A stretch of DNA of 16,625 nt from IMG/VR virus record IMGVR_UViG_2778261459_000008; one strand, 5' to 3'. Under the pieces are notes generated by a model, which had not been told where the DNA came from, made no database searches, and saw only the letters and a program-made list of their open reading frames with translations. The stretch comes from a virus. Its lineage: Duplodnaviria > Heunggongvirae > Uroviricota > Caudoviricetes. Positions 2,671-11,482 of the stretch are shown here, in pieces. Made by a program: the position numbers and the translations under genes. How positions within the stretch are numbered: position 1 is the stretch's first letter; each line of letters begins with the position of its first letter.

Positions 2671-3894
2671 ATGGCTGGTGGAACGAACAAATTAAGCGAT
2701 ACATCGCTTCGTAAAATGCTGGGAAGGGAGAGCCCCGGAGACAGCTTCTATGCTGATGGCGATGGGCTAAGTGTGAAGGTGTCCAGATCGGGCGTGTTGA
2801 CTTGGTATTTCACTTTCCGCATAGGTGGCCGGGAATCAACATCTCAGCGTATAAAGCTGGGTAATTATCCAGACCTTTCACTCAAAGCAGCTCGTGAGAA
2901 ACGAGAGCAGTGTCGCGCATGGCTCGCAGAGGGAAAGAATCCAAAGCACCAGTTGAGCGTTACGACTCAGGAAACGTTAAAGCCGGTGACAGTCAGGGAT
3001 GCCCTTGAATACTGGATCAGGGAATATGCCACCCATAACCGCGCTAATGTTGAAAAGCACATTGAGCAGCTCAATAAGCATATCTTTCCTTATATAGGTA
3101 CTTATCCGCTTTCTATGTGTGAAACTCGCCACTGGCTGGAATGTTTCGCCAGGGTAAGGAACGAAGCGCCTGTAGCGGCTGGCTATCTTTTGCAGATGTG
3201 TAAGCAAGCACTCAAGTTCTGCCGGGTTCATCGGTATGCGGTGAGTAACGTCCTGGACGATCTGACCATTGACGATGTTGGACGTAAACAGAATAAGCGG
3301 GACAGGGAGCATACCCGGCAAGAACTTGCTGATATATGGCGAGAATGCTCAGGCCTGAAATTTAAGCCCTACTACTCAGCTCTATTACGTCTGCTGGTGG
3401 TGTTTGGCTGCCGAACTCAGGAGCTGAGATTATCTCGCGTAACCGAATGGGATCTAAATGATTGGGTTTGGACGGTACCTAAAGAGCACAGCAAAGGTGG
3501 TGAGAAAATACTACGGCCTATTCCCGTAGATATTCGCCCATTTATCAAACAGCTTTTAGAGCAGCACCAAAGCACAGGGCTATTGCTGGGAGAGATAAAG
3601 AAACCGGAAGCTGTCAGTCAGTGGGGAAGGATGTTGTATAAGCGTCTGGGCCACTCTGAACCGTGGACGCTTCACGATTTACGCCGTACATTTTCCACGA
3701 CTCTGAACAACATGGGAATTGCTCCGCATGTTGTCGAGCAGCTTCTGGGCCATGCGCTGGGCGGTGTCATGTCCGTATATAACCGCAGTCAGTATTTACC
3801 TGAAAAGCTGGATGCACTGAATAAATGGATGCAGAGATTAGATGTTATTACCTCTGATATCTCAAATGTTACTATTCTTGAGGTCGCAAGATGA
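2671..3894 (+). CDS. int: tyrosine site-specific integrase (P4/CP4-57-like phage integrase family)
   Basis: 407-aa ORF; N-terminal DUF4102-like arm-binding region (GLSVKVSRSGVLTWYFTFRIGGRESTSQRIKLGNYPDLSLKAAREKREQCRAWLAEGKNP); C-terminal catalytic signature (HDLRRTFSTTL ... LGHALGGVMSVYNRSQY); SD GAGG 8 nt upstream of the ATG. Confidence 0.9.
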   Translation: MAGGTNKLSDTSLRKMLGRESPGDSFYADGDGLSVKVSRSGVLTWYFTFRIGGRESTSQRIKLGNYPDLSLKAAREKREQCRAWLAEGKNPKHQLSVTTQETLKPVTVRDALEYWIREYATHNRANVEKHIEQLNKHIFPYIGTYPLSMCETRHWLECFARVRNEAPVAAGYLLQMCKQALKFCRVHRYAVSNVLDDLTIDDVGRKQNKRDREHTRQELADIWRECSGLKFKPYYSALLRLLVVFGCRTQELRLSRVTEWDLNDWVWTVPKEHSKGGEKILRPIPVDIRPFIKQLLEQHQSTGLLLGEIKKPEAVSQWGRMLYKRLGHSEPWTLHDLRRTFSTTLNNMGIAPHVVEQLLGHALGGVMSVYNRSQYLPEKLDALNKWMQRLDVITSDISNVTILEVAR

Positions 3895-4733
3895 TAAAAA
3901 AAATTAACAGTAAAAGAGACTTACCAAAGTCATTCAGCTTAGAAAAATATGATGACCTTGAAAATATGTCTGATAAGGATTTGTTTCGTCAGCTTTATTG
4001 GCGATGCGATGATTTAACAATAAAAAATACAGACTGCCCTGACTATGGTTTGCAATATGGTGCTAAATACCCGCTTAACAATAATTTTGGTGATCCATTC
4101 GGGGAACTCAAAGCAGAAGAATGGTTTCTTGAAAAGCAAAAGGAATACGAGTACAAGACTCAGCCTGATTTGCTGAAATTAAGTTACGGCGATGGTATAA
4201 AACCATTAATGCGATTTGAGTTGGCATTTTTAAATAAAATCAATGCTGATAAAGGTCACTGGAAAGGAAAGCCAATAGTAGTTGACGATGATTTGGTGGG
4301 GGATTTGTTTACAGCAGATAACGGTATGTTTTGGGCTGTCATGCGTGAGCCAGTAAACTTACTTTCTGATGTTGTGGAAAACGTGATGATTACTGTTGAC
4401 TTAAACAACAGAGATGATCTTTTGATTGAAGCATTCACGAACCTCCTCCCAAAATGGCGCGAAGAACTCGGAATACCTGAACCAGATAAGCCAGTCTCAG
4501 GGGACTGGGAGAGCGTCAGACGGAAGATAATTGACTACAGAATAATTCCACTTATTGATTTGATGTCATGGGAAAGCGCTACCGACAGCAAAATATCCCT
4601 TGGCGTACTCGCAGTATCCCTGTTCCCGGATGGGGAAAAGGAGTCCTTTGCCATAGCTCAAACGGTGAAACCTTTCTTGGATAAAATTATGAGAAGTGAT
4701 TCTTTAGATAAAATCAGGAAAGAATTATCTTGA
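3891..4733 (+). CDS. hypothetical protein, 280 aa, AT-rich cargo gene translationally coupled to the integrase (ATGA overlap)
   Basis: Uninterrupted ORF whose ATG overlaps the int stop (ATGA at 3891-3894); visibly lower GC than flanking genes; no motif I can assign; followed by a strong terminator. Confidence 0.6.
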   Translation: MIKKINSKRDLPKSFSLEKYDDLENMSDKDLFRQLYWRCDDLTIKNTDCPDYGLQYGAKYPLNNNFGDPFGELKAEEWFLEKQKEYEYKTQPDLLKLSYGDGIKPLMRFELAFLNKINADKGHWKGKPIVVDDDLVGDLFTADNGMFWAVMREPVNLLSDVVENVMITVDLNNRDDLLIEAFTNLLPKWREELGIPEPDKPVSGDWESVRRKIIDYRIIPLIDLMSWESATDSKISLGVLAVSLFPDGEKESFAIAQTVKPFLDKIMRSDSLDKIRKELS

Positions 4734-4811
4734 TATAACTGAATCAGGGTAACTCCTTTAGAGGAATATAATTTTTTTCTCACCGTCGCGGTGATAATTT
4801 TTTTGAATAAG

Positions 4812-4848
4812 AATGCTCTCGAACCCTAGCGAACGAGAGCATTTTTTT
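4812..4848 (+). terminator. rho-independent terminator after the 280-aa gene; its T-tract runs into the alpA start codon
   Basis: AATGCTCTCG (4812-4821) pairs with CGAGAGCATT (4834-4843), followed by TTTTTTT and then ATG at 4849. Confidence 0.65.
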
Positions 4849-5058
4849 ATGAACAATATTAAACAATCCCAGCAGCCAGCAGAAAGAGTTATCCGTGAGG
4901 CTGAGTGCCGGCAGCTAACCGGTATTTGTCGAACCACTCGATACATGATGGAAAAAGAGGGGAGCTTTCCCGCCCGCCGCAAGCTGGGAGGTCGTGCTGT
5001 TGGTTGGCTTCTGTCTGAGGTCACAGCATGGCAGCAGAGCCGCAGCAAAGCAGCGTGA
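4849..5058 (+). CDS. alpA: AlpA-family phage/island transcriptional regulator (excisionase-like HTH)
   Basis: 69-aa product MNNIKQSQQP...CRQLTGICRTTRYMMEKEGSFPARRKLGGRAVGWLLSEVTAWQQ carries the AlpA signature (LTG.sR.T.Y....G.FP....LGGR.VGW...E...W). Start at 4849 chosen over the upstream in-frame ATG at 4813 by length similarity to AlpA; no clear SD for either. Confidence 0.8.
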   Translation: MNNIKQSQQPAERVIREAECRQLTGICRTTRYMMEKEGSFPARRKLGGRAVGWLLSEVTAWQQSRSKAA

Positions 5059-5399
5059 GGGGTGGGAAATGTCACATAAAACAAAAGCGGCCATGCAGGG
5101 CCGCCAATGTCACTACCAAAAACTTAAGCAAAGTCAGGATACCAGGGTTAATGCTAGTGGTCAAAGCCAGAGCGCTGCTGGGATTAAAGGAACTGCGGCA
5201 TTGGCGCACACCCTATTTCCCCAAATCTGGGGAGAACTGGATCATCATGCGGGGTGTGCTGCAATGCAGCATACCCCGGAGAAATCCCGTAGTTTCGACA
5301 AATACCCAGATATTGGGTGTTATGGCCTGCATAAAATCACACCTGCGGTTCTTATTCCTGTCCCCGGCTCTTCTTTAGCTCATTTGCAATGGCGGATAT

Positions 5400-5654
5400 T
5401 TAATCACGTGGTAACCAGCCTTTCGCATTCCTTTTGGGGATTGGAAGGTTCTTTTCCTTCAAAATACGTAAAATGGCAGGTTCTGAATGTGGTCCCCAAC
5501 CATCCCAATTACCTTCCCAACAGTCGTTACAGCAGAAAGCCCTACCGTATAATTGCAGTACACGTCCTTGGTAAAGGTCTGGGCCAAATCGTGTTTCTGA
5601 TCCACAGACTTCACATGTGCAATAAAAATGCCCTTTCTCATCTATGCGCATCAT
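5400..5654 (-). CDS. hypothetical Cys-rich small protein (putative zinc-binding), second gene of a two-gene minus-strand operon
   Basis: Product MMRIDEKGHFYCTCEVCGSETRFGPDLYQGRVLQLYGRAFCCNDCWEGNWDGW... contains C-x-C-x2-C and CC-x2-C clusters; GAGGA sits 5 nt upstream of the ATG at 5654; it lies 1 nt downstream of the stop of the upstream RHH gene. The ORF track extends it to a TTG at 5666. Confidence 0.5.
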   Translation of the reverse strand: MMRIDEKGHFYCTCEVCGSETRFGPDLYQGRVLQLYGRAFCCNDCWEGNWDGWGPHSEPAILRILKEKNLPIPKRNAKGWLPRD

Positions 5655-5667
5655 CTTCTTCCTCAAA

Positions 5668-5877
5668 TCAACCTTTTGGTTCTATTCCTTGCCGACGCAA
5701 TTCCGCGCGAGCTAATTCTTTTATCCAATTACCAAGACTTACGCCTTCGCGCTCCGCTGCATCGTTCAGTTGCTGGCGTAGATCAGGGTTGATTCTGATC
5801 TGGAAAGTAGGTGACCAGCCATCACCTTTAGGGGTTTTGTCTCGTTTAATTGTTGACACGTACGTACATAACCTCAT
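5668..5877 (-). CDS. ribbon-helix-helix (CopG/Arc/MetJ-like) DNA-binding protein; start codon uncertain (ATG at 5877 or GTG at 5859)
   Basis: The C-terminal 45 aa (SPTFQIRINPDLRQQLNDAAEREGVSLGNWIKELARAELRRQ) has the beta-strand plus two-helix pattern of RHH repressors. The ORF-track N-terminal extension to 5970 is merely the translation of the palindrome and is unlikely to be coding. Confidence 0.55.
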   Translation of the reverse strand: MRLCTYVSTIKRDKTPKGDGWSPTFQIRINPDLRQQLNDAAEREGVSLGNWIKELARAELRRQGIEPKG

Positions 5878-5904
5878 AGCATGTATTTTGTTATGTACGT
5901 ACGT
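5858..5904. promoter_or_regulatory. perfect 15-bp inverted repeat (ACGTACGTACATAAC, 17-bp spacer, GTTATGTACGTACGT): candidate operator in the divergent control region
   Basis: Read directly: 5858-5872 is the exact reverse complement of 5890-5904. It lies between the minus-strand RHH gene and the plus-strand replication operon starting at 5993; TTGACA is at 5852-5857. Confidence 0.6.
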
Positions 5905-5992
5905 TATCACGTCTGGCATAGAAAAGACAACGCCCCAAACTGTTGGAGCAGTATTGGGGCGTCTAACCAAACCGTTAGTTGAGGTAACAGTT

Positions 5993-6205
5993 ATGGCTGA
6001 ATTACAGCATACCCAAACTCGCCCGGAATTTACATGGAGATTTATCTCTGCTTCTGAGCGCTACCCTACCGCCAAACCATTGGTGATCTACGTCAACGCA
6101 TCCAGCGAACAGGAGGCCCGCGACACTATGCCGGGTGTAAACCTCATTTTCGCAGCACGTCTCCCATTCCATGCCTTTCAGGCAATGGAGGTACGCCATG
6201 CGTGA
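5993..6205 (+). CDS. hypothetical protein, 70 aa, first gene of the replication-module operon
   Basis: ATG at 5993 with GAGG 8 nt upstream; product MAELQHTQTRPEFTWRFISASERYPTAKPLVIYVNASSEQEARDTMPGVNLIF...; stop overlaps the next start. The 403-aa track ORF 4994-6205 is mostly spurious read-through; only this 3' part looks genic. Confidence 0.5.
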   Translation: MAELQHTQTRPEFTWRFISASERYPTAKPLVIYVNASSEQEARDTMPGVNLIFAARLPFHAFQAMEVRHA

Positions 6206-6383
6206 ATTAACCAATAAAAGTGCGTCAATAGCCTGTGAACTGGCTGCGTTGTTGATGGTTGTCGAAGAGTGCGACGTTGATCAGGTTGAGCGTGAAAACC
6301 TTATCAGTCTGGCCAGACGAGTATCGGATCAACTGGCGGCAAGCATGGTCGAGCAGAATTCAACGGGGGGGCTCAATGGATAA
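6198..6383 (+). CDS. hypothetical small protein, 61 aa, paralogue of the next gene
   Basis: ATG at 6198 with GGAGG 6 nt upstream; overlaps upstream stop and downstream start. Confidence 0.5.
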   Translation: MRELTNKSASIACELAALLMVVEECDVDQVERENLISLARRVSDQLAASMVEQNSTGGLNG

Positions 6384-6603
6384 CTTTTACACCTACCGCA
6401 GCAAAAAAGATTTGCTGTTACTGGCGCAAGAGGTTGCCGCGCTTCTGTCATGTGCTGCTTACCTTGCGACTACCAGAGGCGAGGAAGAGCGTATCCATGT
6501 AATGAGTTTGACGCACCTGGCTCAACGGCTTTCTGACGAGCTGGCAAACTCACTGGATATTTCTACTTTTTCAGACCCTGAATCGCGGGAGGCAAAATCA
6601 TGA
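6376..6603 (+). CDS. hypothetical small protein, 75 aa, paralogue of the previous gene
   Basis: ATG at 6376 preceded by a G-rich SD-like run; shares the pattern A..LAALL...ER...SLA.R.SD.LA.S with the 6198-6383 product; overlaps the next start (ATGA at 6600-6603). Confidence 0.5.
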   Translation: MDNFYTYRSKKDLLLLAQEVAALLSCAAYLATTRGEEERIHVMSLTHLAQRLSDELANSLDISTFSDPESREAKS

Positions 6604-6968
6604 TCAGCAATGTGAAGTTTTACGAGCTGGCTAAGCGCGTTGATCTGCTGGTTGAAAAGGTTTTGCATCTTGAGGCACAGGTTAAGTCACTCACTGATAG
6701 TCAGGGGGGGGAAATCCCTCCGGGTATGACGCCAGTAGCAACACTGGCCGCTGAATACGGTATCTCAACCAATAAGGCTGAGGAACTGGCGAAAAACACA
6801 GGGGTGATGCTGGTTAAGCTGAAATCTGGCGGGTTCGTTGCACCTGATGAAAAGTTCAGGGAAGCGGCGCGTCTGGTGCTGCGCAGCGCTAAGCGCAAAT
6901 ATGGCTCTGCGTACTGGTTCCATCCTCTGATCGGCAAATTCCAGATGAGCGGGGGCATTCCAAAATGA
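6600..6968 (+). CDS. hypothetical protein, 122 aa, translationally coupled to the helicase gene
   Basis: ATG at 6600 with GGGAGG 8 nt upstream; ATGA overlap with the downstream gene at 6965-6968; no recognisable motif. Confidence 0.55.
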   Translation: MISNVKFYELAKRVDLLVEKVLHLEAQVKSLTDSQGGEIPPGMTPVATLAAEYGISTNKAEELAKNTGVMLVKLKSGGFVAPDEKFREAARLVLRSAKRKYGSAYWFHPLIGKFQMSGGIPK

Positions 6969-8329
6969 CGGTACAACTGACAGCTGTAGAAACCGTTTCT
7001 GATGCCCTGTTCACCTGTTCGTATCTGTGGGCGCACGGCAAGCAATACAGTCGCAGCGATTTGGATAAAGCGCTCCACCAGCATAAGGACCCCACTACCC
7101 GTTACGGAAAGCTGGTGGCTCGCCTCAACCAGATAGCAGCAATGCCGTATGAGGAACTCTGTGATGCCGGATATCTCGATACGGACCGCAAACAAATGAT
7201 TACAGCGCGGCGTTCTGTGCTGGTGGAAGAGATAGGCGAAGGGGAAATGAATGCCATGCTGTCTGACGTGCAGCGCATTCACCGGGTCTTCCCTGATGCT
7301 GGTGCAAAGTTCAGGACAAAGCTGCCTCTCTCTCGCGGTTCTGAGGGCTTTGATATCCGTCAGGACTATGTCCTTAAACACTTTCTGCCAGCGCAATCAC
7401 TGTGCAGCATTTACGGTCCCAGCGGTTCGTATAAGAGTTTTCTCGCTGTATCGTGGGCCTGTCACATTGCTGCGGGTCTGCCATGGGCTGGGAAGAAGGT
7501 CACTTCCGGCGCGGTGCTGTATGTGGTTGGTGAGGGGGGCGTAGGCGTTCCCCGGCGTATAAAGGCTTGGGAGCAGGTGCACGGCATACAGGCGGACAAC
7601 CTCTGGCTGGTCAATCGTCCGGTGTTTCCTGTGCGCGAGTCAGAGGTAACGGAAGTGCTTCTGGCTGCCAGACAGATTGAAGCTGAATGTGGTGTGCCGG
7701 TTCGCATGGTGGTGATCGATACGCTGGCCCGTTGTTTTGGCGGTAACGACGAGAACGATGCTCGTGATATGGGGGCATTTATTGAAGGGTGTGACGTTAT
7801 CAAACAGAAAACGGGTGCAACGGTGCTGATAGTTCACCACTCCGGCAAAGATGAAGGGAAAGGCGCTCGCGGTTCCAGTGCTTTCCGCGCTGCGCTTGAT
7901 ACTGAATTTAACGTTAAGCGTGAAGGGGATGGAAAGGCGCTTATTCTGACCTGTACCAAGATGAAAGACGCGGAGGAGCCAGAGCGTAAAGCGTATGACC
8001 TGAGAACGGCAGAGCTTTACACCGATGAAGATGGTGAGCTTGTTTGCTCTCTGGTTGTGCACGATCAGCCGAGAGAGGCTAAAGAGGTTGAGCCTGAACT
8101 GGCCAATGTCTCCCGTCTTAGCGATAACCACCATGCATTATGGCAGGCAGTACGCAGCCGCACAGCTAAGGGGGAGCCATGCACTATCTCCGTCATTAAA
8201 GATGATCTGCGTGCAACACTGGGGACAGATAAAGTGAGAAAGTCATTCTCGCGCTGGCTGGACAAGCTGGAGAGTGAGCAAATTATTCGCATCGAGGGTG
8301 AGAACCTTTACCCGGTAACAGTCGAGTAA
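6965..8329 (+). CDS. replication initiator/helicase, RecA-like AAA_25 (RepA-like) ATPase with predicted C-terminal winged-helix DNA-binding domain
   Basis: Walker A (IYGPSGSYKSF), Walker B-like (VRMVVIDTLARCFGG), HHSGKD motif; C-terminal about 90 aa basic and helical; immediately followed by iterons. Confidence 0.8.
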   Translation: MTVQLTAVETVSDALFTCSYLWAHGKQYSRSDLDKALHQHKDPTTRYGKLVARLNQIAAMPYEELCDAGYLDTDRKQMITARRSVLVEEIGEGEMNAMLSDVQRIHRVFPDAGAKFRTKLPLSRGSEGFDIRQDYVLKHFLPAQSLCSIYGPSGSYKSFLAVSWACHIAAGLPWAGKKVTSGAVLYVVGEGGVGVPRRIKAWEQVHGIQADNLWLVNRPVFPVRESEVTEVLLAARQIEAECGVPVRMVVIDTLARCFGGNDENDARDMGAFIEGCDVIKQKTGATVLIVHHSGKDEGKGARGSSAFRAALDTEFNVKREGDGKALILTCTKMKDAEEPERKAYDLRTAELYTDEDGELVCSLVVHDQPREAKEVEPELANVSRLSDNHHALWQAVRSRTAKGEPCTISVIKDDLRATLGTDKVRKSFSRWLDKLESEQIIRIEGENLYPVTVE

Positions 8330-8330
8330 A

Positions 8331-8522
8331 TGCGGCGGTAAGTGCGGCATGTGCGGCATTTAGTATGTTTTATGACCAAATGCCGCACTTAGCCCCTGTA
8401 TACACGCGCTAAGTGCGGCATTTCACTGAAACCACCGTCATTACTGGTTTTGCATGATTTTTTGAGATAACTGGTGCGGCGCTAAGTGCGGCATTACTAA
8501 ACGCGGCACTAAATGCGGCAAG
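8331..8522. repeat. iteron array (replication origin): about 6-7 copies of TAAGTGCGGCATT-like repeats in both orientations plus an AT-rich stretch
   Basis: Copies read at about 8339-8349, 8351-8360, 8379-8393 (reverse), 8410-8424, 8484-8497 and 8510-8522, with degenerate TGCGGCGG at 8331 and CGCGGCAC at 8502; AT-rich 8440-8470. Confidence 0.75.
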
Positions 8523-8543
8523 TTAGACAAACAAGGAGAATTT

Positions 8544-8783
8544 ATGCCTATTACGATTCATGAAATAAAGGAACATTACGATTATTACGGGCTTCATGAT
8601 ATGGTCTCCATGTCAACGAAAGAATACCAACAGATTTTAGCTAATGGTGCTTTGTTCTGGATGGATCATCATGATTTTGTTCGCAGCACTCTTTCCGATG
8701 AAATCTTGGCAACAAACAAGGAGCAACTAGATGCAATAATTGAGCATCTACAACAATACAGAGACAGAATGCCTTCTGCCTAG
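8544..8783 (+). CDS. hypothetical small protein, 79 aa, AT-rich cargo
   Basis: ATG at 8544 with AAGGAG 5 nt upstream; product MPITIHEIKEHYDYYGLHDMVSMSTKEYQQILANGALFWMDHHDF...; followed by a hairpin at 8793-8813. Confidence 0.6.
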   Translation: MPITIHEIKEHYDYYGLHDMVSMSTKEYQQILANGALFWMDHHDFVRSTLSDEILATNKEQLDAIIEHLQQYRDRMPSA

Positions 8784-8792
8784 AAATTTGTT

Positions 8793-8813
8793 AGGGGCTG
8801 ATTCCAAGCCCCT
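8793..8813. terminator. hairpin between the convergent 79-aa and 414-aa genes (likely bidirectional terminator)
   Basis: AGGGGCT-gattcca-AGCCCCT: 7-bp stem, 7-nt loop; flanks only moderately T/A-rich. Confidence 0.45.
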
Positions 8814-8820
8814 GAATGTT

Positions 8821-10065
8821 TCAATAATTAAAGTGACTTTCAACTGAAAGTTGTTTGCAGCCCAATAATTTTAAAGCTTTTCGAATGTAATATAAAGCAG
8901 CGGTATTGTCGATAATGTAGCGGAAGGCTTCATTTTTATCTTGTTGTGCATCTCTTAAATTTCTTTCAAATTCTCTTTCATAATCTTCTGCGTAATATTG
9001 ATTGGATTGTCGGCCCATAATAATCAATGTGGTTAAATCTGCTAATTCTTCCTCTGAAAAGAGAGGTAGGTAAGTAGTGGTGATGCGCATTTTTAACCGT
9101 AGGTAGTCTAAAAAATCTTCTGCTCTGATATCGGATAAACTAATTCCTGAATCCTGTAGTGGGTCCAGAAATACGTTATTTTTTTTCATTACGTCTTTTA
9201 TATGTAGTGCGTACCAAGCTTTTTTAAAACGCAATAGTGTATTTTTCCCGCTATGTTTAAGTGGAAATTCAACGCCAATTAAAGATGATAGGTATCTATT
9301 TACAACAATTTTGTCGATTGCTTTTATAAGTTGTTTGTTGCTATTGAGATTAAATTTTTTCTTGATGAATTCCTTTTTTTTCACTGTAAGTGTAGTTACC
9401 CATTCATTTTTATTACCTAGAGCTTTTGAAAGCTTGATTAGATCACGGCGTGAAAATTTATCGGTATACGTACCTGTTTTATACTCATCTTTCAGATTTA
9501 GAGTGAGCTTAATTATTTCTCGCAAACCTTCCGTGAGCTTTTTGAAATAAACAACAAATCTTACAAGGTTAATGATCGGTGTTTTTTCCAAATGTGTCGC
9601 TCCGACATTGGACTCAGGGTATCTAAAAGTTTGTGCTGTGTCGTCTATAGCCACAAAGTCTAATATATAAGGCTCGATTTTTTTTGTAATGTGAAATAGT
9701 CGTATATCTGTCCTCTCAGCGACATCAATCGTGGCATCCCATAGTTTCTTGATGCTGTGGATTTTTGTCACATCAGGAACTGATATCGCCAATCCTCGGA
9801 GATCTGCCATGTCAATGAGGATAGTCTTTAGAGAAAGCTCAATTCCGTGCCTGGCAGAGTAGGCAATCGGATAAACAAGTAAATCAACTTCTCCTCTCTT
9901 GTTATTTTTGTATATATAGTCAGTAAGTATCTCTGGGGTTCTAAGGTAACCTTCAGCATAAGTTAATGAGTCAGGGAAACCATTCGTTCCGACGCAAGCA
10001 TTCAGCCAATCAAATCGACCATTGCCCAAACCAAAGGTGTTATTAAAGATTGTTTCTTTTTCCAT
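8821..10065 (-). CDS. hypothetical protein, 414 aa, AT-rich cargo gene on the opposite strand to the island backbone; candidate accessory/anti-phage function
   Basis: Uninterrupted minus-strand ORF with ATG at 10065 and AAGGA 8 nt upstream; markedly AT-rich versus flanking replication and capsid genes; no Walker, HNH, DPPY or other catalytic motif recognised. Confidence 0.7.
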   Translation of the reverse strand: MEKETIFNNTFGLGNGRFDWLNACVGTNGFPDSLTYAEGYLRTPEILTDYIYKNNKRGEVDLLVYPIAYSARHGIELSLKTILIDMADLRGLAISVPDVTKIHSIKKLWDATIDVAERTDIRLFHITKKIEPYILDFVAIDDTAQTFRYPESNVGATHLEKTPIINLVRFVVYFKKLTEGLREIIKLTLNLKDEYKTGTYTDKFSRRDLIKLSKALGNKNEWVTTLTVKKKEFIKKKFNLNSNKQLIKAIDKIVVNRYLSSLIGVEFPLKHSGKNTLLRFKKAWYALHIKDVMKKNNVFLDPLQDSGISLSDIRAEDFLDYLRLKMRITTTYLPLFSEEELADLTTLIIMGRQSNQYYAEDYEREFERNLRDAQQDKNEAFRYIIDNTAALYYIRKALKLLGCKQLSVESHFNY

Positions 10066-10312
10066 TAATCGATCCTTGCTTTGTAAATTATTTGTTCAAT
10101 GTCGTTCATTGCTGTTTGAATCAAAAAATACTCGTTTACATCAATAATTCAATATATATCTTAAAGAGTGGCACTCAGACGTGAGCCGCCACTGTTGCCG
10201 TCCGATCCCCTGCGCGATGCCGGGTTGATCTGCGAGATGCCGAGAGTGTCGGGCGGCGCTCCCTCCGTGTTGGTTTCACGTCCTGAATCTTAACCAATAC
10301 GAGAAAACCTTC

Positions 10313-11482
10313 ATGAAGAAATTAATCGAACTCCGCCAGCAAAAAACCGCCCTGAAAAACCAGATGCGATCCCTGCTGGAAAAAGCCGACAGTGAAAACC
10401 GCAGTCTGACCGATGACGAGGGCAAACAGTTTGATGAACTGCGTGCAAAAGCTGATTCCCTCGATACAGACATTTCCCGCCTCGAGTCTGTGGCTGATGA
10501 AGAACGCAGCAAGCCAGGAACGGGCATCCAGAAATTATCATCTGATGAATTGCGTAACTACATCGTAACCGGAGATGTGCGATCTCTGTCCACCAGCACT
10601 GACAGCGGCAGGGATGGCGGATATACCGTAATTCCTGAGCTTGATCGCGAAGTCATGCGCCAGCTACAGGATGACAGTGTTATGCGCGTGATCGCGACCG
10701 TGAAGACTGCAAAATCAAATGAGTTTCAGAAACTGGTTTCCACTGGCGGCGCAACTGTAGGACGAGGCACAGAAGGCAGCGCACGCAGTGAAACCAACAC
10801 CCCGAAAATTGAACGCGTAACCATCAAGCTGAATCCGATCTACGCCTACCCGAAAACCACGCAGGAAATCCTGGATTTTTCAGAGGTGGATATTCTGGGC
10901 TGGTTATCCTCCGAAATTGCCGACACGTTCGCCAGCACCGAAGAGGATGATTTTGTTAATGGCGACGGTAACGGCAAGCCGAAAGGCTTCATGGCTTACA
11001 CCCGTGCGGCGACCAGTGACAAAACCCGCGCTTTTGGCACCATTGAAAAAATGGTAGCGGCAAGTGGAACCGCCATTACAGCGGACGAACTGATCGACAT
11101 TCTCTACAAGCTGAAAGCGAAATACCGCAAAAATGCCGTCTGGGTGATGAACTCGGGCACGGCAGGGACACTACAGAAGCTGAAAAATGAGAACGGCGAT
11201 TATATCTGGCGCGACAGCCTTAAAGAAGGTGCGCCGGATATGTTGCTTGGTCGTCCTGTTTACTGCCTGGAGTCCATGCCGGACATCGGCGCAGGAAAAG
11301 CACCGCTAGCGGTTGGCGATTTCAGTCGTGGTTATTTCATCGTTGATCATGTAACAGGGATTCGCACCCGACCGGACAACATTACTGAACCCGGATTCTA
11401 CAAGGTCCACACGGATAAATATCTGGGCGGTGGTGTGGTGGATTCAAACGCCATCAAAATTCTGGAAATGAAAGCTGGCTAG
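10313..11482 (+). CDS. major capsid protein, HK97 fold, with N-terminal coiled-coil delta (scaffold) domain
   Basis: 389 aa; N-terminal about 70 aa is a charged coiled coil (LIELRQQKTALKNQMRSLLEKADSENRSLTDDEGKQFDELRAKADSLD); FVNGDGNGKPKGF motif typical of HK97-family capsids; strong terminator immediately downstream. Confidence 0.85.
   Translation: MKKLIELRQQKTALKNQMRSLLEKADSENRSLTDDEGKQFDELRAKADSLDTDISRLESVADEERSKPGTGIQKLSSDELRNYIVTGDVRSLSTSTDSGRDGGYTVIPELDREVMRQLQDDSVMRVIATVKTAKSNEFQKLVSTGGATVGRGTEGSARSETNTPKIERVTIKLNPIYAYPKTTQEILDFSEVDILGWLSSEIADTFASTEEDDFVNGDGNGKPKGFMAYTRAATSDKTRAFGTIEKMVAASGTAITADELIDILYKLKAKYRKNAVWVMNSGTAGTLQKLKNENGDYIWRDSLKEGAPDMLLGRPVYCLESMPDIGAGKAPLAVGDFSRGYFIVDHVTGIRTRPDNITEPGFYKVHTDKYLGGGVVDSNAIKILEMKAG

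What the first reader, a model, noticed from the sequence alone, without database searches (positions are those of the whole stretch)
8544..10065. AT-rich cargo locus between the origin and the capsid module: 414-aa protein (minus strand) convergent with a 79-aa protein, candidate uncharacterised defence system
This is the position where satellites commonly carry anti-phage or other accessory cargo. The 414-aa gene runs against the backbone, has its own SD and AT-rich promoter region, is bracketed by a hairpin terminator and a GC-rich structured region, and differs sharply in composition from its neighbours. I found no known catalytic signature, so it may be an undescribed single-protein effector; the 79-aa gene may be a partner or a separate small cargo.
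Basis: partly seen in the sequence, partly recalled or inferred. Interest (0 to 1): 0.8.

Follow-up and report, generated by a model that had tools for sequence, protein, structure and literature searches.

The report
Candidate HEPN-like defence gene in satellite
A phage satellite in the E. coli chromosome carries, in a swappable cargo slot, one uncharacterised 414-residue protein that looks like an RNA-cutting (HEPN-type) anti-phage protein; the small 79-residue gene beside it is ordinary satellite backbone.

Summary
Both ORFs exist exactly as described, in an AT-rich stretch between the iteron origin and the capsid gene of a capsid-forming PICI (cf-PICI) inserted between yhdJ and fis.

The 79-aa gene is not cargo or a partner. 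A homologue sits at the same place in 88 of 91 related satellite loci, whatever the cargo.

The 414-aa gene is a 1.29-kb cassette in a sharply bounded slot, between the 79-aa gene and a conserved 19-mer. In 87 satellites the slot is empty in 27. Elsewhere it holds one of 12 cargo gene families (this gene is one) or an IS transposase, mostly antisense.

Homologues (about 6,300 clusters) are absent from 50,697 phage genomes. They lie inside type I R-M operons and next to Gabija, Tmn, type II R-M and PADLOC candidate genes.

Best reading: an undescribed single-protein abortive-infection candidate. Function is unproven, and the RNase mechanism is inferred.

The parts
8327..8523 (.). Iteron array (about 9 copies of AAGTGCGGCAT-like repeats, both orientations); putative satellite replication origin downstream of the RepA-helicase gene. 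Backbone.
   Evidence: repeat families D1-D3, inverted pairs I1-I8; rep gene AAA_25 E 5.9e-42
8544..8783 (+). 79-aa conserved satellite backbone gene (phrog_1957, function unknown) with SD AAGGAG at 8533-8538. Always the last + strand gene before the cargo slot. Not a partner of the 414-aa protein.
   Evidence: no tblastn match in 50,697 phage genomes; the exact sequence is on 458 contigs against 237 for the 414-aa protein
8791..8815 (.). GC hairpin (AGGGGCU-loop-AGCCCCU) between the convergent stop codons; probable bidirectional terminator. It travels with the 414-aa cassette in Klebsiella and Pectobacterium.
   Evidence: dG -18.7 kcal/mol, z -3.71; alignment of regions downstream of the 79-aa gene
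8821..10065 (-). 414-aa cargo gene (RefSeq WP_029401188.1, 'DUF3775 domain-containing protein'); candidate single-protein defence gene.
9448..10065 (-). Codons 1-206: conserved N-terminal domain with a HEPN-like four-helix bundle. Near-invariant residues: N22-A-C-V-G26, N28-G29, P66, R72-H73, E76, K80, H103, D120, D141, F147-R148-Y149, H158, E194, R206. Proposed effector.
8824..9447 (-). Codons 207-414: variable all-helical C-terminal half. Includes the sub-threshold DUF3775 match at aa 331-402 and a disordered linker near aa 295-301. Proposed sensor or regulatory region.
10073..10077 (-). Shine-Dalgarno AAGGA of the 414-aa gene, 7 nt upstream of its ATG; the last cassette-specific bases.
   Evidence: read from the sequence; alignment
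10079..10097 (.). Conserved backbone 19-mer (C/T)TTTGTAAATTATTTGTTC marking the right edge of the cargo slot. It lies about 12-25 nt from the start codons of three unrelated antisense cargo genes, and follows the 79-aa gene within 12-64 nt in empty islands.
10135..10162 (+). Promoter-like site TTTACA-16-TATCTT for the packaging operon, within the conserved AT-rich backbone block 10079-10165. The cargo's promoter is inferred to lie in the same block on the other strand; it was not identified.
   Evidence: conservation
10168..10262 (+). Two-hairpin structured leader upstream of the capsid gene (backbone), supported by covariation.

Best explanation
The window holds a capsid-forming PICI satellite. 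It has int, alpA, a RepA helicase, an iteron origin, then the HK97-type packaging genes: capsid, protease, portal, connector, HNH, TerS and TerL.

Between the backbone 79-aa gene and a conserved 19-mer lies a cargo slot, which here holds one 1.29-kb cassette encoding the 414-aa protein. SHOWN: the cassette limits; that the slot is variable or empty in other satellites; the protein's two-part architecture (a conserved HEPN-like N-terminal bundle and a variable helical C-terminal half); its absence from phage genomes; and the defence-rich neighbourhoods of its homologues.

INFERRED: the gene is transcribed antisense to the satellite operons from a backbone-supplied promoter, so it would be made while the satellite is quiescent. 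The protein would act alone as an abortive-infection-type sensor-effector. The variable C-terminal half would hold the N-terminal domain inactive until it meets a phage-derived trigger. The N-terminal domain would then cleave RNA (tRNA or mRNA, as in HepS, PrrC and RnlA) and stop phage and cell growth. That would protect sister cells that carry the satellite.

Approximate likelihoods: accessory cargo cassette 0.95; anti-phage or anti-MGE defence 0.6; HEPN-superfamily homologue 0.65; RNase mechanism 0.35.
For: Cassette and slot. Only 3 of 5,426 complete E. coli genomes hold the cargo, while 168 hold the flank. Homology break-points are sharp, and the 19-mer abuts the starts of unrelated cargo genes. 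In 87 satellites the slot is empty in 27; elsewhere it holds 13 ORF clusters (12 cargo families including this one, plus an IS transposase), 10 of them antisense. The same cargo occurs at 98.8-99.5% identity in backbones whose capsids are 75% and 99% identical to the window's.

Context of homologues. Two lie between hsdS and hsdR of type I R-M operons, next to PDC-S11 and PDC-M16A. Others lie beside a type II R-M system; beside PDC-M60, a weakly matching nSTAND-type NTPase and VspR; next to a HEPN/Toprim-associated gene that separates it from Gabija GajA/GajB (E 3e-259 and 7e-191); directly after Tmn (E 0); and beside a PLD-helicase and a PIN_12 protein.

There is no tblastn hit in 50,697 phage genomes, and 116 plasmids carry a homologue. 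The literature expects immune systems in this cf-PICI variable region. HepS is a precedent for a single-HEPN, MGE-borne abortive-infection protein (PMC13043305).
Against: No experiment supports defence. There is no PADLOC v2 match for this protein or for any of the other cargo families tested, so the slot is not yet shown to hold any validated defence system.

Four of 12 non-satellite contexts show no defence neighbours. The promoter for the gene was not found by the consensus scan.
Confidence: 0.5

Rival explanations
1. The protein is a toxin-like stabilisation or MGE-competition factor. It would be a self-restrained toxin that penalises loss of the satellite or plasmid, or excludes rival mobile elements, rather than acting against phage infection.
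For: HEPN-fold proteins are common toxins (HEPN/MNT hits 7ae2, 5yep and 8xdj). Plasmid homologues sit among ParDE, TacAT-like and VapBC toxin-antitoxin modules near replication and partition genes. 72 of the 116 plasmids with a homologue are conjugative.
Against: No antitoxin-like neighbour is conserved. The only constant neighbour in satellites, the 79-aa gene, is present whether or not the cargo is there. No MNT gene is adjacent. 27 of 87 satellites persist with an empty slot. Many homologues lie in R-M or Gabija contexts instead.
Confidence: 0.15
2. The protein serves the satellite's own life cycle. For example, it could interfere with the helper phage or modulate the host during induction.
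For: The gene lies between the replication and packaging modules. It is found in at least three satellite backbones: RepA-type cf-PICI, D5-primase cf-PICI, and a Pectobacterium satellite without a capsid module.
Against: It is transcribed antisense to the satellite operons. It is absent from about 90% of related satellites. It is widespread outside satellites, in R-M operons, on plasmids and as a solitary chromosomal gene.
Confidence: 0.08
3. The conserved domain is not a nuclease. The protein would be a nucleotide- or nucleic-acid-binding regulator, or an enzyme with other chemistry, built on a HEPN-like scaffold. It could still act in defence.
Against: Those C-terminal matches are at noise level. 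From my own knowledge of the field, not checked here, most HEPN-fold proteins in defence contexts are RNases. No alternative catalytic family was detected by Pfam, NCBIfam or PDB searches.
Confidence: 0.22

Closest known systems
HepS (Gifsy-1 prophage single-HEPN abortive-infection protein; PMC13043305)
   Different: No detectable sequence similarity. HepS has a canonical HEPN catalytic site and a known trigger (the siphovirus tail-tip protein J). Here the motif is R-x9-H, the protein is about twice as long, with a 210-aa helical C-terminal half, and both trigger and activity are unknown.
PrrC anticodon nuclease of the E. coli prr locus (established knowledge, not tested here)
   Same: Two homologues of the 414-aa protein occupy the PrrC position, between hsdS and hsdR of a type I R-M operon. 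PrrC's nuclease domain is classed in the HEPN superfamily, and it acts by abortive infection.
   Different: PrrC has an N-terminal ABC-type NTPase domain, and this family has none (no Pfam or NCBIfam hit). There is no sequence similarity. In the window the gene has no R-M partner.
HEPN/MNT toxin-antitoxin toxins and classical PF05168 HEPN domains (sacsin 3o10, 4nqf, 7ae2, 5yep)
   Different: No adjacent MNT antitoxin. All profile matches are below threshold. The R-to-H spacing is 9 rather than 4-6. The protein has extra N-terminal conserved loops and a large C-terminal extension.
Defence hotspots of phage satellites: P4 and PICI (cited in PMC10085698), and cf-PICI variable regions (10.1101/2025.02.11.637232)
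   Same: A variable accessory locus at a fixed position in a satellite backbone. The cf-PICI preprint names the region before the packaging module as one of four variable regions expected to encode immune systems.
   Different: None of the 12 cargo families found in this slot matches a PADLOC v2 model, so the content is uncharacterised. The slot's exact limits, its 19-mer landmark and the antisense orientation were worked out here rather than taken from the literature.

Membership tests
HEPN superfamily | Four-helix up-and-down bundle fold | tested here: met
HEPN superfamily | Rx4-6H catalytic motif at the start of the last core helix | tested here: not met
   The only conserved Arg...His pair in that position is R148-Y-P-x7-H158. 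Its spacing is 9 in 165/187 sequences and 10-11 in 13. There is no conserved R-x4-6-H anywhere in the protein.
HEPN superfamily | Significant sequence-profile match to a HEPN family | tested here: inconclusive
   PF05168 is hit by 3 of 34 members (best E 5e-4). The family consensus gives HEPN_AbiU2 at E 0.0048 (16.8 bits, cut-off 26.8) and PF05168 at E 0.19. hhalign against a real PF05168 family gives E 0.024 and probability 2%. PDB profile searches found no HEPN chain.
HEPN superfamily | Metal-independent RNase activity from a dimeric composite site | not testable with these tools
   This needs purified protein or a multimer model.
DUF3775 (PF12616), the name RefSeq gives the protein | Score at or above the Pfam gathering threshold | tested here: not met
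   26.3 bits against a cut-off of 27, at aa 331-402. Only 8 of 34 family members match at E<1. The match covers a variable part of the protein.
Known or candidate defence systems in PADLOC-DB v2.0.0 | Match to any of 5,027 models | tested here: not met
   No hit at E<=0.1 for the 414-aa or 79-aa protein, nor at E<=0.01 for three distant homologues. Models added after 2023, such as current DefenseFinder, could not be tested.
HEPN/MNT-type toxin-antitoxin pair | Adjacent nucleotidyltransferase (MNT) or other cognate antitoxin gene | tested here: not met
   In the window the neighbours are the backbone 79-aa gene (no Pfam hit) and the capsid gene. No partner is conserved across 12 non-satellite contexts.
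Capsid-forming PICI (the host element) | int, alpA and rep genes, plus own HK97-type capsid, protease, portal, connector, HNH, TerS and TerL genes; no tail or lysis genes; about 15 kb | tested here: met
   Pfam hits for integrase, AlpA, AAA_25, Phage_capsid, Peptidase_S78, Phage_portal, Phage_connect_1, HNH, Terminase_4 and TerL. RefSeq annotation of the identical island shows it bounded by yhdJ and fis, with no tail or lysis genes.
Capsid-forming PICI (the host element) | Helper-phage induction and packaging into its own small capsids joined to helper tails | not testable with these tools
   Experimental property.

The most novel reading that the evidence does not exclude
The 414-aa protein founds a large, undescribed family of single-protein immune effectors (about 6,300 clusters at 50% identity). 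In this reading, a HEPN scaffold has been rebuilt around a different active site (R-x9-H plus the invariant R72-H73-x2-E76, H103, D120, D141 and an N-A-C-V-G loop), possibly with chemistry other than classical HEPN RNA cleavage. In addition, cf-PICI-type satellites would display such genes from an integron-like expression slot: a backbone promoter block and a 19-mer landmark that accept interchangeable antisense cassettes.
Probability: 0.2. Interest if true: 0.75.

Novelty: new member of a known kind. Interest (0 to 1): 0.5.

Why it matters
If confirmed, this would add a widespread, unannotated protein family to the anti-phage repertoire. The family is found in Enterobacterales satellites, on conjugative plasmids, in Vibrio and Pseudoalteromonas islands, and in type I R-M operons.

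It would also give a first functional content to the cf-PICI variable region that the literature only 'expects' to encode immunity. The slot map made here (exact borders, a conserved 19-mer, 12 cargo families, 27/87 empty) is a ready list of candidates for screening. These satellites cross genus boundaries: the same protein cluster occurs in E. coli, Enterobacter, Citrobacter and Atlantibacter. Such cargo could therefore move phage resistance between clinical species.

Tried and rejected
- **Known defence system:** rejected. PADLOC v2 gave no hit for either protein, for distant homologues, or for the other slot cargos tested.
- **79-aa protein as partner or antitoxin:** rejected. Its homologue is present in every related satellite, whatever the cargo.
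- **Phage structural or life-cycle gene:** rejected. Neither protein has a tblastn hit in 50,697 phage genomes.
- **Sequence homology to solved structures:** nothing meaningful with a single sequence, the full-length profile or the N-domain profile.
- **Foldseek against the PDB:** no hit with E<1. The afdb50 library was unavailable.
- **hhalign of the N-domain against a bona fide HEPN family from the same slot:** not significant.
- **Consensus promoter scan:** no - strand promoter found upstream of the 414-aa gene.
- **Rfam:** no family matched in 8300-10400.
- **Genome-contig scan with the single 79-aa sequence:** only 2 loci. Repeating it with an alignment on viral contigs gave 80.
- **Literature:** a search for 'DUF3775' found nothing relevant. 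A search for the FS_HEPN_TM / FS_HP names was uninformative.

Full report
**1. What the window is.**
The left end is E. coli chromosome. It holds acrS (571-1233, TetR/MAATS) and yhdJ (1499-2389, N6_N4 methyltransferase). From 2671 onward lies a mobile element:
- tyrosine integrase (2671-3894)
- a DUF6387 gene
- AlpA (4849-5058)
- an Icd-like gene
- a RepA-type helicase (6965-8329)
- HK97-type capsid (10313-11482), S78 protease, portal, connector, HNH, P27-family TerS and TerL

A megablast match at 99.9% over window 8400-10300 in E. coli HZ13 shows the island bounded by yhdJ and fis, with no tail or lysis genes. This is the gene set of a capsid-forming PICI, as described in PMC10085698.

**2. 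The observation.**
- GC falls to 0.32-0.375 across 8601-9800, against 0.50-0.57 on both sides.
- Upstream, about nine AAGTGCGGCAT-type iterons (8327-8523) form a plausible origin.
- A strong hairpin (8791-8815, z -3.7) separates the two stop codons.
- The 414-aa gene has an AAGGA Shine-Dalgarno 7 nt before its ATG.

**3. The 79-aa gene is backbone.**
Homologues at 43-100% identity sit immediately before the slot or the capsid gene in all 88 related satellite loci where slot and capsid could both be located. Three more loci hold the gene but no detectable capsid gene. These loci include islands with unrelated cargo and islands with none. The protein matches phrog_1957, of unknown function. It has no match in 50,697 phage genomes. 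Its exact sequence is on 458 contigs, against 237 for the 414-aa protein. It cannot be a dedicated partner.

**4. The slot.**
Alignments show that homology between islands breaks just after the 79-aa stop codon. It resumes at a 19-mer, (C/T)TTTGTAAATTATTTGTTC (window 10079-10097).
- The 19-mer lies about 12-25 nt from the start codons of three unrelated antisense cargo genes: the window's 414-aa gene, the 254-aa gene in strain D8, and the 168-aa gene in TUM12357.
- In empty islands it follows the 79-aa gene within 12-64 nt.
- It was found in 72 of the 91 satellite loci searched and in none of the non-satellite loci.

The AT-rich stretch 10079-10165 is therefore backbone. It carries a conserved + strand promoter-like site for the packaging operon. 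By inference, it also carries the divergent promoter that drives whatever cassette is present.

In 87 satellites the slot is empty in 27. The rest yield 13 ORF clusters, 10 of them antisense. Twelve are cargo gene families, and this gene is one of them, present in 9 loci. The thirteenth is an IS630-type transposase that interrupts another cargo gene.

The same cargo, at 98.8-99.5% identity, sits in backbones whose capsids are 75% and 99% identical to the window's. So the cassette moves between backbones. A cf-PICI preprint independently lists the region before the packaging module as variable and 'expected to encode immune systems'.

**5. The protein.**
The search for homologous proteins returned 58 relatives. 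A profile search of 1.84 billion representatives returned 6,287 clusters at E<=1e-3 and 568 at E<=1e-30. Of the 150 best listed, most are about 350-460 aa and matched end to end.

No source gives the protein a functional name. Pfam gives only a sub-threshold DUF3775 match at aa 331-402 (26.3 bits against a cut-off of 27). NCBIfam, PHROGs and PADLOC give nothing useful.

Conservation over 187 sequences is concentrated in aa 8-206. Residues identical in at least 96% of sequences are P66, R72, H73, E76, K80, H103, D120, D141, F147, R148, Y149, H158, E194 and R206. The C-terminal half is variable apart from a few positions: W222, I253 and E360 at 96% or more, and L216 and I263 at 87-90%.

**6. How good is the HEPN call?**

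Evidence for:
- sub-threshold but recurrent HEPN hits (PF05168 in 3 of 34 members, best E 5e-4; HEPN_AbiU2 at E 0.005 for the family consensus)
- colinearity of invariant residues: E76/K80, H103 and R148-Y149 here, against E47/K51, H66 and R103-Y104 in a bona fide PF05168 family that I found as another cargo of the same slot

Evidence against:
- Foldseek finds nothing
- hhalign against that HEPN family gives only 2% probability
- the defining Rx4-6H motif is replaced by a fixed R-x9-H

I treat the domain as HEPN-like (about 0.65) and the RNase activity as an inference (about 0.35).

**7. Context outside satellites.**
I examined twelve independent non-satellite neighbourhoods. Eight contain defence or toxin-antitoxin genes:
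- two where the gene lies between hsdS and hsdR of type I R-M operons (the position PrrC occupies in the prr locus), followed by PDC-S11 (DUF4268) and, in one, PDC-M16A
- one beside a BsaWI-type R-M system
- one beside PDC-M60, a weakly matching nSTAND-type NTPase and VspR
- one on a Vibrio plasmid, next to a HEPN/Toprim-associated gene that separates it from Gabija
- one on a Leclercia plasmid, directly after Tmn and near a restriction enzyme and VapBC
- one beside a PLD-helicase and a PIN_12 protein
- one among toxin-antitoxin modules on a Salmonella IncF plasmid

Four show nothing suggestive. No neighbour is conserved across contexts, so the protein acts alone or with host factors.

**8. 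Mechanism and rivals.**
The best reading is a single-protein, abortive-infection-type sensor-effector. The conserved N-terminal domain would be the effector. The fast-evolving C-terminal half would be the sensor or auto-inhibitor. The gene would be expressed antisense from the backbone while the satellite is quiescent.

The rivals, weighed in their own sections, are:
- a toxin-like stabilisation or MGE-competition factor
- a satellite life-cycle function
- a non-nuclease activity on a HEPN-like scaffold

Nothing here proves defence, and none of the slot's other cargo families is a validated system either.

**9. Novelty.**
The kind is known: accessory immune cargo in a satellite hotspot, and MGE-borne single-HEPN abortive-infection proteins such as HepS. 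This family is not described in any library I could query, and its motif is atypical. I class it as a new member of a known kind, with moderate interest. It is a well-supported experimental candidate rather than a surprise.

Noticed in passing
window 10168-10262 (+), extending to about 10284: Structured leader upstream of the capsid gene, conserved across satellites: hairpin 1 (10168-10192) and a long hairpin 2 whose stem sequence differs completely between islands yet always pairs. On 26 distinct loci, 97.1% of cells are paired against 28-51% for slid controls; 12 of 20 pairs have compensatory changes; 0/500 shuffles reach this. Frequent G-U pairs are readable only on the + strand, which points to an RNA element of the packaging-operon leader. 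A possible alternative pairing links the hairpin-1 loop GACGUGAG to downstream UUCACGUC, with one covarying position in 4 loci. No Rfam 15 match. Function unknown; it may be a regulatory switch tied to helper infection.
   Followed up: partly
window 10079-10097: Conserved 19-mer TTTTGTAAATTATTTGTTC at the right edge of the cargo slot. It is present once in 72 of 91 satellite loci, including a Pectobacterium satellite that lacks the capsid module, and never in the non-satellite loci. It could be part of the cargo promoter, an operator, or a recombination landmark for cassette exchange.
   Followed up: partly
loci L002, L015, L016, L038-L087 (slot between the 79-aa gene and the capsid gene): Eleven further cargo gene families occupy the same slot, and none matches PADLOC v2. 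Examples: a 168-185-aa protein (20 loci), sometimes paired with a 252-259-aa protein (7 loci); an approximately 257-aa protein with an N-terminal hydrophobic segment (11 loci); a bona fide HEPN PF05168 protein of 265 aa (L069, E 7e-9); and a 232-aa + strand protein containing RRNAMVH, an Rx4H-like motif (L077).
   Followed up: partly
L064, about 4730-6980: An IS630-type transposase (DDE_3, E 1.4e-24) is inserted in the slot, splitting the approximately 257-aa cargo gene into two pieces.
   Followed up: no
L014 6278-7518 and L031 (Phytobacter massiliensis JC163): The 414-aa gene is present but broken into three ORFs: aa 1-129 at 99% identity, the rest at 79% with frame changes. This is either a decaying copy or errors in an old draft assembly.
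   Followed up: no
L032 vs L033 vs window; L002: Mosaicism. The 79-aa gene and the 414-aa gene diverge together (100/99, 92/91, 85/84, 73/75, 68/56 % identity to the window). The capsid gene does not: it is 75% or 99% identical for the same cargo, and 99% identical in D8, which carries different cargo. This implies recombination break-points between the cargo and the capsid gene.
   Followed up: partly
window 5668-5859 (-): A small antisense gene in the regulatory region. RefSeq calls it a YlcI/YnfO family protein, and it gives a HicB-family Pfam hit (E 9.7e-6). No HicA-like partner was looked for.
   Followed up: no
window 3891-4733 (+): A DUF6387 gene directly after the integrase (E 6e-30). 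The same family follows the integrase region in the Pectobacterium satellite. The cf-PICI preprint lists the gene downstream of alpA as another variable region of unknown function.
   Followed up: no
cluster of the 414-aa protein: The cluster at 90% identity or more spans E. coli, Enterobacter hormaechei, E. ludwigii, E. cancerogenus, Citrobacter youngae, C. braakii and Atlantibacter hermannii. The 79-aa protein is 100% identical in Phytobacter. This fits the reported cross-genus spread of cf-PICIs.
   Followed up: no
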